A stretch of 64,000 nucleotides of DNA from assembly GCF_009914755.1 (NCBI RefSeq), contig NC_060945.1. The stretch is one strand, 5' to 3'. The translations under genes were made by a program, and so were the position numbers. The notes below the pieces were generated by a model, which was not told the origin of the DNA, made no database searches, and saw nothing but the letters and a program-made list of their open reading frames with translations. Positions 22,754 through 31,753 of this stretch are shown here, piece after piece (the stretch's first letter is position 1; each line of letters opens with the position of its first letter). Origin of the DNA: the human T2T-CHM13v2.0 reference genome, Homo sapiens.

Positions 22754-25268
22754 AAATCTTATCAGCAATTACATTAAACATAAATGGATTCACATTCCAA
22801 CCAAAAGAAACAGATTGGCAGAACTAATTCTTAAAAATGCATTATTCGGGGGCTAGCAAGATGGCCGAATAGGAACAGTTCCAGTCTGCAGCACCCAGTG
22901 AGACTAACACAGAAGGCAGATGATTTCTGCATTTCCAACTGAGATACCCGGTTCATCTCCTTGGGACTGGTTACACAGTGGGTGCAGCCCACAGAGGGTG
23001 AGCAAAAGCAGGGTGGGGTGTTGCCTCACCCGGGAAGTGCAAGGGATTGGGGAAGTCCCTCCCCTAGCCAAGAGAAGCCATGAGGGACTGTGCTGTGAGA
23101 GATGGTGCTATCCAGCCCAGATACTATGCTTTTCCCACGGTCTTCACAACCTGCAGACCAGAAGATTCCCTTGGGTGCCATACCACCAGGGCCCTGGGTT
23201 TCAAGAACAAAACTGGGCAGCCATTTGCGCAGACACAGAGATAGCTGCAGAAGTCTTTTTTCATACCCCAGTGGTGCCTGGAATGCCAGCAAGACAGAAC
23301 GGTTCACTCCCTGGAAAGAGGGCTGAAGCCAGGGAGCTAAGCGGTCTTTCCCAGAGGATCCCACCCCCACAGAGCCCAACGAGCTAAGATCCACTGGTGT
23401 GAAATCCTCTCTGCCAGCACAGCAGTCTGAAGTCAACCTGGGATGCTCAAGCTTGGTGAGGGAAGGGGCATCCACCATTACTGAGGCTTGAGTAGGTGAT
23501 TTCCCCCTCACAGTGTAAACAAAGCCTTAGGGAAGTTCGAACTGGGCAGAGCCCACCACAGCACGGCAAAACCACTGTAGCCAGACTGCCTCTCTAGATT
23601 CTTCCTCTCTGGGCAGGGCATCTCTGAAAGAAAGGTAGCAGCCCCAGTCAGGTGCTTATAGATAAAACTCCCATCTCCCTGGGACAGACCACCTGGGGGA
23701 AGGGGCGGCTGTGGGTGCATCTTCAGCAGACTTAAACGTTCCTGCCTGCTGACTCTGAAGAGAGCAGTGGATTTCCCAACACAGCACTTCAGCTCTGCTA
23801 AGGGACAGGCTGCCTCCTCAAATGGGTCCCTGACTCCTATGCCTCCTGACTGTGAGACACCTCCCAGCAGGGGTCAACAGACACCTCATACAGGAGAGCT
23901 CCAGCTGGCATCTGGAGGGTGTCCCTCTGGGACGAAGCTTCCAGAGGAAGGAGCAAGCAGCAATCTTTGCTGTTCTGCAGCCTCCACTGGTGATACCCTG
24001 GCAAACAGGATCTGGAGTGGACCTCCTGCAAACTCCACCAGACCTGCAGAAGAGGGTCCTGACTGTTAGAAGGAAAACTAACAATCAGAAAGCAATAGCA
24101 TCAACATCAACAAAAAGGACGCCCACGCAAAAACCCCATCCGAAGGTCACCAACATCAAAGATCAAAGGTAGATAAATCCATGAAGATGAGGAAAAACCA
24201 GCACAAAAAAGCTGAAAATTCCAAAAGCCAGAATACTTCTTCTCCTCCAAAAGATCACAACTCCTCACCAGCAAAGGAACAAAACTAGATGGAGAATGAG
24301 TTTGACAAATTGACAGAAGCAGGCTTCAGAAAGTGGGTGATAACAAACTCCTCCGAGCTAAAAGAGCATCTTCTAACCCAATCCAAGGAAGCTAAGAACC
24401 TTGATAAAAGGTTACAGGACTTGCTAACTAGAATAACCAGTTTAGAGAAGAACATAAATGACATGATGGAGCTGAAAAACACAGCACAAGAACTTTGTGA
24501 AGCCTAAACAAGTATCAATAGCTGAATCGATCAAGCAGAAGAAAGGATATCAGAGATTGAAGATCAATTTAATGAAATAAAGTGTGAAGACAAGATTAGA
24601 GAAAAAATAATGAAAAGAAACAAACAAAGCCTCCAAGAAATATGGGACTATGTGAAAAGACCAAACCTACGTTTGATTGGTGTACCTGAAAGTGATGGGG
24701 AGAATGGAACCAAGTTGGAAAACATACTTCAGGAAATTATCCAAGAGAACTTCCCCGACCTAGCAAGATAGGCCAACATTCAAATTCAGGAAATACAGAG
24801 AAAACCAGAAAGATACTCCTCGAGAAGAGCAACCCGAAGACACATAATCAACAGATTCACCAAGGTTGAAATGAGGAAAAAATGTTAAGGGCAACCAGAA
24901 AGAAAGGTCAAGTTACCCAGAAAGGGAAACCCATCAGACCAACAGGAGATCTCTCTAAAGAAACCCTACAAGCCAGAAGAGAATGGGGGCCAATATTCAA
25001 CATTCTTAAAGAAAAGAATTTTCAACCCAGAATTTTGTATCCAGCCAAACTAAGCTTCATAAGTAAAGGAGAAATAAAATCCTTTATAGACAAGCAAATG
25101 CTGAGGGATTTTGTCACCACCAGGCCTGCCTTACCAGAGCTCCTGAAGGAAGCACTAAATATGGAAAGGAAAAACCGGTACCAGCCACTGCAAAAACATA
25201 CCAAAATGTAAAGACCATCAACACTATGAAGAAACTCCATCAACTAATGGGCAAAATAAACAACTAGT

Positions 25269-25575
25269 GGTCCAGGTGTGGTGGCTCACACCTGTAATCC
25301 CAGCATTTTGGGAGGCCGAGGCGGGTGGATCACGAGGTCAGGAGTTCAAGACCAACCTGGCCAAGATGGCAAAACCCTATCTCTATGAATAATACAAAAA
25401 AAAAAAAAAAAAAAAGATTAGCTAGATGTGGTGGAGGGCACCTGTAATCTCAGCTACTCAGGAGGCTGAGGCAGAGAACTGCTTGAACCCAGGAGGTGGA
25501 GGTTGCAGTGAGCCAAGATCATGCCACTGCACTCCAGCCTGGACAACAAGCAAGACTCCAAAAAAGAAAAAAAAA
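25269..25575 (+). mobile_element. AluS (Sg-like) in the L1 inter-ORF region, with an expanded middle A-tract
   Basis: gatcacgaggtcaggagttc; ~A19 middle linker at 25397-25415. Confidence 0.9.
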
Positions 25576-26323
25576 GCTAGCATCATAATGACAGAATCAA
25601 ATTCACACATAACAATATTAACCTTAAATGTAAATGGGCTAAACGTCCCAATTAAAAGACTCAGACTGGCAAATTGGATAAAGAGTCAAGACCCATTGGT
25701 GTGCTGTATTCAGGAGACACATCTCACGTGCAAAGACACATATAGGCTCAAAACTAAGGGATGGAGGAATATTTACCAAGCAAATGGAAAGAAAAAAAAA
25801 AGCAGGGGTTGCAATCCTAGTCTTTGATAAAACAGACTTTAAACCAACAAAGATCAAAAAAGACAAAAAAGGGCATTACATAATGGTAAAGGGATCAATG
25901 CAACAAGAAAAGCTAATGATCTAAATATATATGCACCCAATACAGGAGAACCCAGATTCACAAAGCAAGTTTTTAGAGACCTACAAAGAGACTTAGACTC
26001 CCAAACAATAACAGTGGGAGACTTTAGCACCCCACTAACAATATTAGACAGATCAACGAGACAGAAAATTAACAAGGATATTCAGGACTTGAACTCAGCT
26101 CTGGACCAAAAGGACCTAATAGAAATCTACAGAACTCTCCACACCAAATCAACAGAATATACATTGATCTCAGCACGACATAGCACTTACTCTACAATTA
26201 ACCACATAATTGGAAGTAAAACTCTCCTCAGCAAATGCAAAAGAACAAGAATCATAAAAAACAGTCTCTCAGACCACAGTGCAATCAAATTAGAAATCAG
26301 GATTAAGAAACTCACTCAAAACC

Positions 26324-29749: not shown

Positions 29750-29975
29750 ACAATGAGATCACATGGACACATGAAGGGGAATATCACACTCTGGGGACTG
29801 TGGTGGGGTGGGGGGAGCGGGGAGGGATAGCATTGGGAGATATACCTAAGGCTAGATGACGAGTTAGTGGGTGCAGCACACCAGCATGGCACATGTATAC
29901 ATATGTAACTAACCTGCACAATGTGCACATGTACCCTAAAACTTAAAGTATAATAAAAAAAAAAAGAAAAAAAAA
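27746..29975 (+). mobile_element. L1PA2-like young 3' portion with G-rich 3'UTR and poly(A)
   Basis: Near-identity to recalled L1HS ORF2; GAG at 29861-63 (not Ta ACA or pre-Ta ACG) and A at 29946; poly(A) 29955-29975. Confidence 0.88.
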
Positions 29976-31753
29976 GTTTTTCATAAAAAATGCATTTTTT
30001 AATGCTCAACTATATGCTGCCTACAAAAGACGCATTTTAAACTTAATGACATAAATAGGTTGAAAATAAAAGGATAGGAAAATATATACCATTCATACAA
30101 AAGAGAGTTAGAGTGGCTATACTAATATCAGACAAAATGGACTTTATACAAAAATCGTTACTAGAGACAAAGAAGGACATTTTATAGTGATAAAAGTATC
30201 AATCTATCAGAAAGAAACAACAATTATAAACATAGAAGGACCTAAAAACAGGGCCTCAAAATATATAAAGCAAAAACTGACAAAATGGGCAGATATGAAA
30301 GAATAAATAGACAAGTCAGCAATAACAGTTGGAGACTTTCAACCACACTTTCAATAATATAGAGAAAAACTAGACAGAAGATCAACAAGAAAGTAGAAGA
30401 CTTGAACAGTACTATGAACCAACTAGACCTAATAGACATCTACAGAACACTTCAGAATACATATTTTTCTCAAGCACACATGGGATATTTTCTAGGATAA
30501 ACTATATTGCCATAAGACAAGTTTCAATAAATTTACATTGATTAAAAATACACAAAATATGTTCTCCAACCATAATGAAATGAAATTAGAAATCAATCAC
30601 AGAAGAAAATTTAGACAATTCACAAATAGGAAAACAACACAATTCTAAAAAAATCAGTGGCTCAAAACTAAAATCACAACAGAAGTTGGAAATTGAGCAG
30701 ATTGAAAACAAAACACAACATATCTATGGGATGCAAATAAAGCAGTGCTTATAGGGAAATTTATAGTTGTAAGTGTCTATATTTACAAAGTAGAATGATC
30801 TTAAATGAATAACCACTGGCTACCTTAAGAAACTAGAAAAAGAACTAAACCCAAAGCAGAAAAAGGAAGGAAATAATAAATATTAGAGACAAAATAAACG
30901 AAATAGAGAATAGAAAGTAATAAAAATAAATCAATAAAACCAAAAAGTAGAAGTTGATAAGATCAACAAAATTGACAAATGTTTCTCAAAACTGAACAAG
31001 AAAAAAAGAAAGGATTCAAATAACTAAAATTAGAAATGATATAGGGAATGTTACTACTGACCTTACAGAAAAAAAAAATAGGATTATAACAAAAAACAAT
31101 GGGCAATTGTACACCAAAAAATCAGATAACCTAGATGAAACGGACATATTCTTAGAAAGATAAAACAACCTAAACTGACTCAAAAAGAAACAGAAGTCTG
31201 AATAGAGTTATAAAAAATACAGAGATTGAATTAGTAGGGAAAAACATTGCAAAGAAAAGGTCAGGCCCAGATAGCTTCACTGGTGAATTCTACCAAAACT
31301 TTAAAGAATACTTGACGTCAATTCTTCACAAACTCTTCCAAAAAATAGAAGAGGGAGAACGTTTCCCAACTCATTCTATGAAGCCAGTATTACTCTGATA
31401 CCCAAATCAAAGACATCACAAGAGAAGAAAATTACATACTAATATTTATTGTGCATATATGCAAACTTCTGAACATACTATTAGTAAACCAAATCCAACA
31501 ACATATGAAAAGATGTGTACACTGTGACCAAATGAGATTTATCCCAGAAATGCAATATGGATTCAACATAAAAAATCAAGCAATGCAATATGTCATATTA
31601 ATAAAGGACAAAACCACATGGTCATCTCAGTAGACGTGGAAAGCATTTGATAAAATCAACATCCTTTCATGATAAAAACACTCAATAAACTAGTAATAGA
31701 AGGGAATTTCCTCAACCTCATAAAGGGCATCTACAAAAAAAGTTAACATCGTC

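What the first reader, a model, noticed from the sequence alone, without database searches (positions are those of the whole stretch)
22833..29999. Full-length L1 chimera: old L1PA7-like body with its 3' 2.2 kb overwritten in register by a young L1PA2-like copy, original TSD kept
Seen: 22847-27740 is heavily decayed (stops, frameshifts, two Alus), whereas 27750-29975 is open. Against recalled L1HS ORF2, about 7 of the first 38 residues of the ORF differ and only about a dozen of the next 668. The switch falls in a shared 11-mer aaaattcaaca (27740-50) with no gap or duplication. The whole unit is flanked by one old TSD (aaaaatgcattatt 22833-46; aaaaatgcattttt 29986-99), and a stub gtttttcat separates the young poly(A) from it. 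Known: L1 cDNA can anneal to a resident L1 during TPRT and give chimeras with loss of the intervening DNA. Inferred: a young L1 primed in the old element's own tail and replaced its 3' third, rejuvenating a dead element in place, possibly only in the human/African-ape lineage.
Basis: partly seen in the sequence, partly recalled or inferred. Interest (0 to 1): 0.8.

Follow-up and report, generated by a model that had tools for sequence, protein, structure and literature searches.

The report
Old L1 with young 3' end
A dead, roughly 25-30-million-year-old human L1 retrotransposon has had its last 2.2 kb swapped, exactly in register, for sequence from a much younger L1 family; this kind of L1 hybrid is already known and the element stays non-functional.

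Summary
One colinear L1 (22847-29975, + strand) changes age abruptly. The same nine young genomic copies are 85-88% identical to it over 26650-27739 (8 of the 9 cover this stretch) and 98.1-99.1% over 27750-29975.

- **Private changes:** 4.0-4.6% in the old part against 0.23-0.48% in the young part.
- **CpG sites of the young copies kept:** 0 of 8 on the left, 13 of 16 on the right.
- **Trees:** the left part sits with old copies and the right part with young copies. Forcing the opposite placement is rejected (p 6e-5 and 1.5e-6).
- **Switch point:** inside 27740-27750, with no gap.
- **Right edge:** the young state runs to the last diagnostic sites and into the poly(A) tail.
- **Flanks:** a 14-nt repeat with one mismatch, matched by 0 of 28 other L1 flanks.

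The mechanism is inferred. I favour target-primed reverse transcription started in the old tail, with the new cDNA annealing to the resident L1 (about 0.55). Ectopic gene conversion, or insertion followed by recombination, remain possible. The element stays broken, so "rejuvenated" overstates it. "L1PA7" is approximate. Ape orthologues could not be checked. This is a new member of a known kind, of low to moderate interest.

The parts
22833..22846 (+). Left copy of the target-site duplication (AAAAATGCATTATT), preceded by TT, so the bottom strand reads TTTTT/AA
   Evidence: sequence. (statistics). The endonuclease motif 5'-TT/AAAA is as quoted in PMC5105311 (passage).
22847..27739 (+). Old L1 body: 5' UTR, broken ORF1 and the 5' two thirds of ORF2. 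Grade is ancestral L1PA5 to L1PA7 or older.
   Evidence: Best genomic identity is 88-90%. Private changes are 96 of 2,411, 34 of 744 and 46 of 1,098 sites. The stretch groups with 8 old copies at SH-aLRT 98. ORF1 has the extra 9 nt relative to 3 young copies.
25267..25579 (+). Alu insert 1 with its 3' repeat copy. The 13-nt repeat matches at 10 of 13 positions (25254-25266 against 25567-25579).
   Evidence: Old L1 copies align up to 25266 and resume at 25567, with 13 nt of overlap. Sequence. The name 'Alu' is by eye, from memory.
26324..26657 (+). Alu insert 2 with a perfect 17-nt repeat, GAAACTCACTCAAAACC (26307-26323 and 26641-26657)
27740..27750 (+). Crossover interval (AAAATTCAACA). There is no gap or duplication. 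Identity shared by both parents here is 11 nt, and at most 39 nt.
   Evidence: site-by-site states. (single HSP 26639-29975 in 8 of 9 young copies).
27751..29954 (+). Young L1 3' part: the 3' third of ORF2 plus the 3' UTR, L1PA2 grade
   Evidence: 98.1-99.1% identical to 9 young copies. Private changes are 5 of 2,200 sites. It sits inside the young clade at SH-aLRT 100 with end branch 0.0063. Old copies' 3' ends are only 83-87% identical.
27590..29749 (+). Open stop-to-stop frame of 719 codons. It spans the junction and has no intact upstream ORF2.
29955..29975 (+). Poly(A) tail A11-G-A9. The G at 29966 is shared in the same aligned column by 5 of 9 young copies and 0 of 3 aligned old copies.
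29976..29984 (+). Stub GTTTTTCAT between the tail and the right repeat. Its origin is unexplained.
   Evidence: No L1 3' end in this genome is followed by a tail and then this stub, apart from chance hits.
29986..29999 (+). Right copy of the target-site duplication (AAAAATGCATTTTT), with one mismatch to the left copy

Best explanation
An old full-length L1 of about L1PA6/7 grade inserted here at a canonical TTTTT/AA site and decayed in place, picking up two Alus.

Much later an RNA of the then-active L1PA2-grade lineage was reverse transcribed from a nick in, or at the edge of, the old element's own A-rich tail. After about 2.2 kb the growing cDNA left its RNA and annealed to the homologous stretch of the resident L1, within an 11-39-nt block of identity at 27740-27750. 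Repair then replaced the old 3' 2.2 kb and most of the old tail with the new copy, leaving the original flanks untouched.

The hybrid structure itself is shown. The priming site, the annealing step and the single-step nature of the event are inferred. The product is still non-functional.
For: **Structure**
- There is a step from about 88% to about 99% identity against the same loci.
- Trees for the two sides are incongruent, and forcing the opposite placement is rejected.
- CpG retention is 0 of 8 on the left against 13 of 16 on the right.
- Private change differs 10-20-fold between the two sides.

**Retrotransposition rather than DNA-level exchange**
1. The young state holds to the last diagnostic sites, 29937 and 29939. 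The tail then carries the A-run-then-G pattern seen in 5 of 9 nearest young copies and 0 of 3 aligned old copies. So the tract runs off the 3' end of L1 into the poly(A), as an RNA-derived copy must.
2. The incoming sequence comes from the lineage that was active at the time. A homology search among genomic copies would mostly find older, far more numerous donors (inference).
3. No genomic copy is close enough to be a conversion donor. The best copies differ at 22-28 of about 2,200 nt, although the window's copy has only 5 private changes. None of the 39 scored copies shares its four private sites in 28110-28710; the best differ at about 5 of 601 nt.
4. The parents are only about 88% alike, and the crossover sits in no more than 39 nt of identity. 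That suits annealing better than homologous recombination. The length requirement for recombination is recalled, not tested.

**Against a chimeric RNA inserted in one piece**
- No copy of the old part above 90% identity exists elsewhere.

**Mechanism in print**
- L1 cDNA leaving its RNA to pair with nearby homologous DNA, likened to synthesis-dependent strand annealing, is described in 10.1101/2024.08.27.596794 citing Gilbert 2005 (passage).
Against: - Nothing here separates a one-step event from ordinary insertion into the tail followed by recombination between the two tandem L1s.
- Gene conversion automatically preserves the flanks. The favoured model instead needs the nick to fall within about 25 nt of tail.
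- The progenitor was not found. No L1 3' end in this genome has a tail followed by GTTTTTCAT, and the one look-alike is a 93.8%-identical older copy.
- The stub between tail and repeat is unexplained by this model.
- The comparison panels are the best-matching copies, so identities are upper-tail values.
- The clade groups for the AU tests were named after the identity table had been seen.
- The key papers (Gilbert 2002 and 2005, Symer 2002) could not be read here.
Confidence: 0.55

Rival explanations
1. Ectopic gene conversion. A break in the old element's 3' region or tail was repaired using a young L1 copy elsewhere in the genome as template, copying about 2.2 kb without touching the flanks.
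For: The exchange is in register, nothing is lost or gained, and the original flanking repeat is kept. All of this follows automatically from conversion.

Repair of a broken chromosomal LINE by conversion from endogenous LINEs is cited in PMC1920257 (passage and reference list; the Tremblay 2000 paper itself was not held).

Recombinant full-length young L1s are reported: 22 high-confidence and 13 probable among 2,267 (PMC13192797, methods passage).
Against: - The tract would have to end within the last 16 nt of L1 or inside the tail, and include the tail's G at 29966.
- A tract of 2.2 kb is long for mammalian conversion (recalled).
- Donor and recipient are only about 88% alike.
- No copy close enough to be the donor was found among those scored.
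- A donor from the rare young family is less likely a priori than one of the many older copies (inference).
Confidence: 0.17
2. Two steps. A young L1 first inserted by ordinary target-primed reverse transcription into the old tail, in the same orientation. Later, single-strand annealing or unequal recombination between the two tandem L1s removed the old 3' 2.2 kb and the 5' part of the young copy.
For: It gives exactly the observed product, including a young tail and intact outer flanks. A-rich tails fit the endonuclease motif (TT/AAAA; PMC5105311 passage).
Against: It needs two rare events where one would do. Recombination would have to resolve in no more than 39 nt of identity between sequences that are 88% alike. 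No trace of the young insertion's own left repeat remains, although the model itself expects that to be deleted.
Confidence: 0.12
3. Non-allelic recombination between two separate same-orientation L1s, an old one upstream and a young one downstream, with loss of the DNA between them.
For: It would give an in-register hybrid. Deletions of this kind associated with L1 recombination are cited in PMC5105311 (reference list only; the Han 2008 paper was not held).
Against: The 5' flank of the old part and the 3' flank of the young part would then be unrelated. They share 14 nt with one mismatch, anchored at the L1 edge, and 0 of 28 other L1 flanks reach that length, the maximum being 12. The parents are only 88% alike.
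Confidence: 0.05
4. Other origins. Either a single insertion of a chimeric cDNA, made by a template switch from a young L1 RNA to an old L1 transcript, or an assembly artefact.
For: One flanking repeat encloses the whole unit. Template switching by the L1 reverse transcriptase is documented (PMC1920257 passage).
Against: The source of the old half, with its decay and its Alus, should survive elsewhere at about 98-99% identity. The best match is 88-90%. A mis-join at an 11-nt identity inside a 7-kb element is unlikely for a telomere-to-telomere assembly; that is inference, since no reads were available.
Confidence: 0.04

Closest known systems
L1 chimeras formed during retrotransposition in cultured human cells (Gilbert et al. 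2002 and 2005; Symer et al. 2002). These are recalled; I saw only a summarising passage in 10.1101/2024.08.27.596794 and reference lists.
   Same: A new 5'-truncated L1 copy is joined in register to a resident L1 through annealing of the cDNA to homologous DNA. The new poly(A) lies at the 3' end.
   Different: As I recall them, the reported cases come from marked elements in cell culture and usually delete the DNA between the target site and the resident L1. This one is a fixed germline copy. Its target was the resident element's own tail, so only the homologous 2.2 kb was replaced and the flanking repeat survives.
Repair of a broken chromosomal LINE by gene conversion from endogenous LINEs (Tremblay et al. 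2000). It is cited in PMC1920257; the paper itself was not held.
   Same: Non-reciprocal, in-register replacement of L1 sequence with the flanks untouched.
   Different: PMC1920257 quotes tracts as short as 13 bp. Here the tract is 2.2 kb, runs into the poly(A) tail, and no donor is identifiable.
Recombinant full-length young L1s in human pangenome assemblies (PMC13192797; methods and discussion passages)
   Same: Full-length L1 loci whose two parts belong to different lineages: 22 high-confidence and 13 probable among 2,267 screened.
   Different: That screen covers the L1PA2/L1HS continuum. Here the partners are far apart, at about 12% divergence. Its site tables could not be opened, so I cannot say whether this locus is listed.
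L1 recombination-associated deletions (Han et al. 2008; reference list only)
   Same: The product is a hybrid L1 with an in-register junction.
   Different: As I recall, those events remove unique DNA and leave mismatched flanks. Here the flanks match.

Membership tests
Primate L1 (LINE-1) element, full length | 5' UTR, ORF1, ORF2 (endonuclease and reverse transcriptase), 3' UTR and poly(A), colinear with other copies | tested here: met
   The element is colinear with 49 genomic copies from 22847 to 29975, apart from the two Alu inserts. ORF2p matches 9k6g_A over 719 residues and ORF1p matches 2ykp and 6fia.
Primate L1 (LINE-1) element, full length | Target-site duplication at a TT/AAAA-type site | tested here: met
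   A 14-nt repeat with one mismatch; 0 of 28 other L1 flanks reach 14 nt. The bottom strand reads TTTTT/AA (motif quoted in PMC5105311).
Old part as L1PA7 | Extra tripeptide two residues upstream of the ORF1p coiled coil. It is present in ancestral L1Pa5, L1Pa6 and L1Pa7, and absent from modern L1Pa5 through L1Pa1 (PMC7449397). | tested here: met
   There are 9 extra nt relative to 3 young copies and no gap relative to 10 of 11 old copies. This does not separate L1PA7 from ancestral L1PA5, L1PA6 or older families.
Old part as L1PA7 | Match to the L1PA7 consensus better than to L1PA6 or L1PA8 | not testable with these tools
   No repeat library was available and I built no consensus. The end branch of 0.069 and private change of 4.0-4.6% only place it among the older L1PA copies.
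Young part as L1PA2 | Groups with the youngest genomic copies and lacks the human-specific Ta marker in the 3' UTR | tested here: met
   It sits inside the young clade at SH-aLRT 100. It has GAG at 29861-29863, where two neighbours have ACA or ACT. Reading GAG as non-Ta is from memory.
Chimera formed during target-primed reverse transcription | The new copy ends in its own poly(A) at the priming site | tested here: met
   The young state reaches 29939, and the tail shares its G at 29966 with 5 of 9 young copies and 0 of 3 aligned old copies.
Chimera formed during target-primed reverse transcription | The 5' end of the new copy joins the resident L1 in register at a short identity | tested here: met
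   The junction lies within 27740-27750 and is gap-free.
Chimera formed during target-primed reverse transcription | The event is a single step from an RNA, with a pre-event allele that is uniformly old | not testable with these tools
   This needs ape orthologues or human haplotypes, and none was available. The progenitor search was negative.
Ectopic gene conversion tract | A donor copy in the genome nearly identical to the converted tract | tested here: not met
   The best copies differ at 22-28 of about 2,200 nt, against 5 private changes in the window's copy. None of the 39 scored copies shares the four private sites in 28110-28710. Only 40 candidates were scored per search, so a donor could have been missed or lost.
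Ectopic gene conversion tract | Both tract ends lie inside shared homology | tested here: inconclusive
   The left end does. The right end lies beyond 29939 and apparently beyond 29966, where only A-runs are shared.
L1 recombination-associated deletion | The flanks derive from two different insertions, so the repeats do not match | tested here: not met
   The flanks do match.

The most novel reading that the evidence does not exclude
This would be a natural, germline example of one-step replacement of an L1's 3' end. A young L1 RNA is primed in the tail of a resident, long-dead L1 and overwrites its last 2.2 kb with no loss of flanking DNA.

It may be recent enough to be human-specific and perhaps still polymorphic. 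The young part has 5 private changes in 2,200 nt, against 9-15 in seven neighbours of the same type and 4 in each of two Ta-like copies.

If so, such events are a retrotransposition-driven source of what looks like L1 'gene conversion'. They would also mislead age estimates and locus-specific L1 read mapping.
Probability: 0.35. Interest if true: 0.4.

Novelty: new member of a known kind. Interest (0 to 1): 0.27.

Why it matters
Hybrid L1s like this one show that an old, fixed repeat can acquire a stretch of nearly consensus young sequence. Three practical consequences follow:

- **Dating.** Repeat annotation would split the element into two differently aged pieces, so dating repeats by divergence is affected.
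- **Read mapping.** Assigning RNA or methylation reads to "young" L1 loci is affected. This locus carries a 719-codon open frame of young sequence inside an intron of MIS18A, on the opposite strand to that gene.
- **Mechanism.** It bears on how much apparent L1 gene conversion is really a by-product of retrotransposition.

As a single locus it does not change what is known. It is a clean test case, because the flanking repeat and the tail survive, so ape orthologues can tell the mechanisms apart.

Tried and rejected
- **Progenitor search.** I searched this genome for a young L1 whose 3' flank begins with the stub, using an L1 3' end, 3-63 nt of tail, then GTTTTTCAT. Only the locus itself and chance hits came back. 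The one hit with the stub directly after an A-run (L062) is a 93.8%-identical older L1.
- **Conversion donor or sibling.** I looked for a copy sharing the window's private changes and found none among the scored copies.
- **Tripeptide test against solved ORF1p.** The chains start too late to cover the site, so I used three young genomic copies instead.
- **Whole copies of 40 reference elements.** The old-family and young-family panels therefore cover only parts of the element.
- **Papers.** Gilbert 2005, Tremblay 2000, Khan 2006 and Han 2008 are not held. Several searches returned mostly engineered "chimeric L1" constructs.
- **A longer, 19-20-nt flanking repeat** (TTCTTAAAAATGCATTATT against TTCATAAAAAATGCATTTTT, three differences). 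I considered it, and it would shrink the stub to 3-4 nt. It implies a non-canonical nick site, so the question is left open.

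
Full report
**What is there.** The window is human chr21, and the assembly itself could be searched. Between 22847 and 29975 on the + strand lies one colinear L1 with a 5' UTR, ORF1, ORF2, 3' UTR and tail.
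- Upstream of about 27590 the element is broken. ORF1 has three in-frame stops in its first 195 codons, and later pieces are in other frames.
- Two Alu inserts interrupt the body. One has a 13-nt repeat matching at 10 of 13 positions, the other a perfect 17-nt repeat. The name Alu is by eye.
- From 27590 to 29749 a stop-to-stop frame of 719 codons is open.

**The step in age is real.**
- *Solved ORF2p.* Against chain 9k6g_A the frame differs at 11 of its first 50 residues and 15 of the remaining 669. The last of the 11 lies at nt 27737-27739.
- *Genome search.* The 3' 2.2 kb finds copies at 99% identity. The 1.1 kb just upstream finds nothing above 90%, and the 5' 2.4 kb nothing above 88%. Each search scored 40 candidates out of thousands.
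- *Same molecules, both sides.* The nine young loci are 98.1-99.1% identical to the right of 27750. The eight of them that cover 26650-27739 are 84.7-88.4% identical there, within a single gap-free alignment.
- *Sliding windows.* In 100-nt windows the median goes from 82.5-93% to 97-100%, with no patches on either side.
- *Private changes.* Sites where the window differs from at least 90% of the copies covering that site number 96 of 2,411, 34 of 744 and 46 of 1,098 in three old segments. In the young part they number 7 of 1,450 against all panels and 5 of 2,200 against the young panel.
- *CpG sites.* Of the CpG sites present in at least 75% of young copies, the window keeps 0 of 8 on the left and 13 of 16 on the right.
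- *Trees.* With 34 rows, the left segment falls in a clade with eight old copies (SH-aLRT 98, end branch 0.069). The right segment falls inside the young clade (SH-aLRT 100, end branch 0.0063). Forcing the opposite placements is rejected, at p 6e-5 and 1.5e-6.
- *Caveats.* The groups were named after I had seen the identity table, and the panels are best-matching copies rather than random ones.

**Junction and right boundary.**
- The last sites with the old state are 27730, 27731, 27736, 27737 and 27739. At 27736-27739 the window agrees with six of the eight oldest copies, and disagrees with both the intermediate and the young ones.
- The first site with the young state is 27751, where five of eight old copies differ. 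Sites 27779, 27793 and 27800 follow.
- The exchange therefore lies in the 11-mer 27740-27750, and at the very most within 27740-27778.
- At the other end, fetched 3' ends of eight old copies are only 83-87% identical. The window keeps the young state to the last diagnostic sites, 29937 and 29939.
- The tail is A11-G-A9. Its G at 29966 falls in the same aligned column in 5 of 9 young copies and 0 of 3 aligned old copies.
- The transferred tract thus appears to include the tail.

**Flanks.**
- AAAAATGCATTATT abuts the L1 5' end and AAAAATGCATTTTT follows the tail.
- A match this long, anchored at the L1 edge, occurs in 11 of 20,000 random pairs from the window and 1 of 20,000 shuffles.
- L1 flanks are biased towards A-rich sites, and two of eight old 3' flanks (of the 17 3' flanks tested) resemble the window's left flank. 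I therefore also compared against real L1 flanks.
- None of 28 reaches 14 nt, but three reach 12. A fair P is about 0.01.
- The left repeat is preceded by TT, which gives a canonical TTTTT/AA nick site (motif quoted in PMC5105311).
- One mismatch in 14 fits an old duplication better than a young one, but only weakly.

**Which families.**
- The old ORF1 has nine extra nucleotides just upstream of the coiled coil. This is relative to three young full-length copies, which are only 73-74% identical there. It shows no gap against 10 of 11 old copies.
- PMC7449397 (passage) states that this tripeptide is present in ancestral L1Pa5, L1Pa6 and L1Pa7 and absent from modern L1Pa5 to L1Pa1.
- Together with the branch lengths, this places the body at L1PA5-ancestral to L1PA7 grade or older. 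"L1PA7-like" is reasonable but unproven.
- The young part belongs to the youngest clade. It carries GAG at 29861-29863, where two neighbours carry ACA or ACT. Reading that as non-Ta, L1PA2-type is from memory.

**Timing.**
- The young part has 5 private changes in 2,200 nt. Seven GAG-type neighbours have 9-15, and the two ACA/ACT copies have 4 each.
- At a recalled neutral rate of about 0.1% per million years, that is roughly 2 million years, with wide error.
- The same paper notes that L1Pa2 is still active in chimpanzee and bonobo, so the family name does not date the event.
- A human-specific event is plausible but untested.

**Mechanism.** Five routes give this product.
1. *Favoured, about 0.55.* Reverse transcription of a young L1 RNA was primed in the old tail, and the cDNA annealed to the resident L1. 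This accounts for several things:
   - the tract ends in a young-type tail;
   - the donor comes from the lineage active at the time;
   - the junction needs only a short identity between partners that are 88% alike;
   - no near-identical genomic copy exists.

   Active source elements are often lost, whereas a conversion donor would normally persist. That last argument is inference.
2. *Ectopic gene conversion, about 0.17.* It explains the intact flanks without effort. It needs a 2.2-kb tract that ends in the tail, and a donor that I could not find.
3. *Ordinary insertion into the tail followed by recombination between the tandem copies, about 0.12.* This cannot be told apart from the first route here.
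4. *Recombination between two distant L1s, about 0.05.* It is disfavoured by the matching flanks.
5. *A chimeric cDNA inserted in one piece.* It is disfavoured because no copy of the old half above 90% identity exists elsewhere.

**Unexplained.**
- The nine bases GTTTTTCAT lie between the tail and the right repeat.
- They could be a short 3' transduction, filler, or part of a longer and more diverged duplication. The candidates are TTCTTAAAAATGCATTATT and TTCATAAAAAATGCATTTTT, with three differences, but that reading implies a non-canonical nick.
- No source element with this flank exists in this genome.

**What is known.**
- L1 cDNA pairing with nearby homologous DNA is described in 10.1101/2024.08.27.596794, citing Gilbert 2005 (passage).
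- Conversion of broken LINEs is cited in PMC1920257 (passage). That paper also reports 3 of 21 non-classical L1 insertions falling in pre-existing L1s.
- A 2026 pangenome study flags 35 recombinants (22 high-confidence and 13 probable) among 2,267 young full-length L1 consensus sequences (PMC13192797, passages).
- I could not read the original papers on L1 chimeras, nor any supplement. I found no description of this locus, but my seven full-text searches were not aimed at it.

**Verdict.** "Rejuvenation" is overstated, because the element remains broken. This is a clean new example of a known kind of L1 hybrid.

Noticed in passing
window 29955-29975; loci L002-L010 3' ends: Several of the nearest young L1 copies share a tail that starts with 10-14 A, then a G, then more A; 5 of 9 have the G in the same aligned column as the window. 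This suggests that part of the tail is templated from a common source lineage rather than added afresh.
   Followed up: partly
window 29985-30000: The right flanking repeat sits in a perfect 16-nt palindrome, A6-TGCA-T6.
   Followed up: no
L045 and L044 (5' flanks of two old L1 copies on C23): BLAST extended into the 5' flanks of these two unrelated old L1 copies because they resemble the window's 5' flank; one reads TTTTTAAAAATACAAGATA. This probably reflects the endonuclease's site preference, and in any case a random-DNA null overstates the significance of L1 flanking repeats.
   Followed up: yes
L015 (G000:C5:1971807-1975887): This old L1 copy is rearranged. An inverted segment equivalent to window 25647-27746 is joined to a direct segment from 28590 onward, which looks like a twin-priming inversion. 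Its outer breakpoint (27746) falls in the same 11-mer as the window's junction, probably by coincidence.
   Followed up: no
window 26307-26323 and 26641-26657; 25254-25266 and 25567-25579: The two Alu inserts in the old body differ in how well their repeats are preserved (17 of 17 against 10 of 13). They probably arrived at different times, and both lie in the old part only.
   Followed up: partly
window 22847-29975: According to the gene table supplied with the finding, the whole element lies within the span of MIS18A, which is on the minus strand. The L1 is therefore intronic and antisense to that gene, and no exon is nearby.
   Followed up: no
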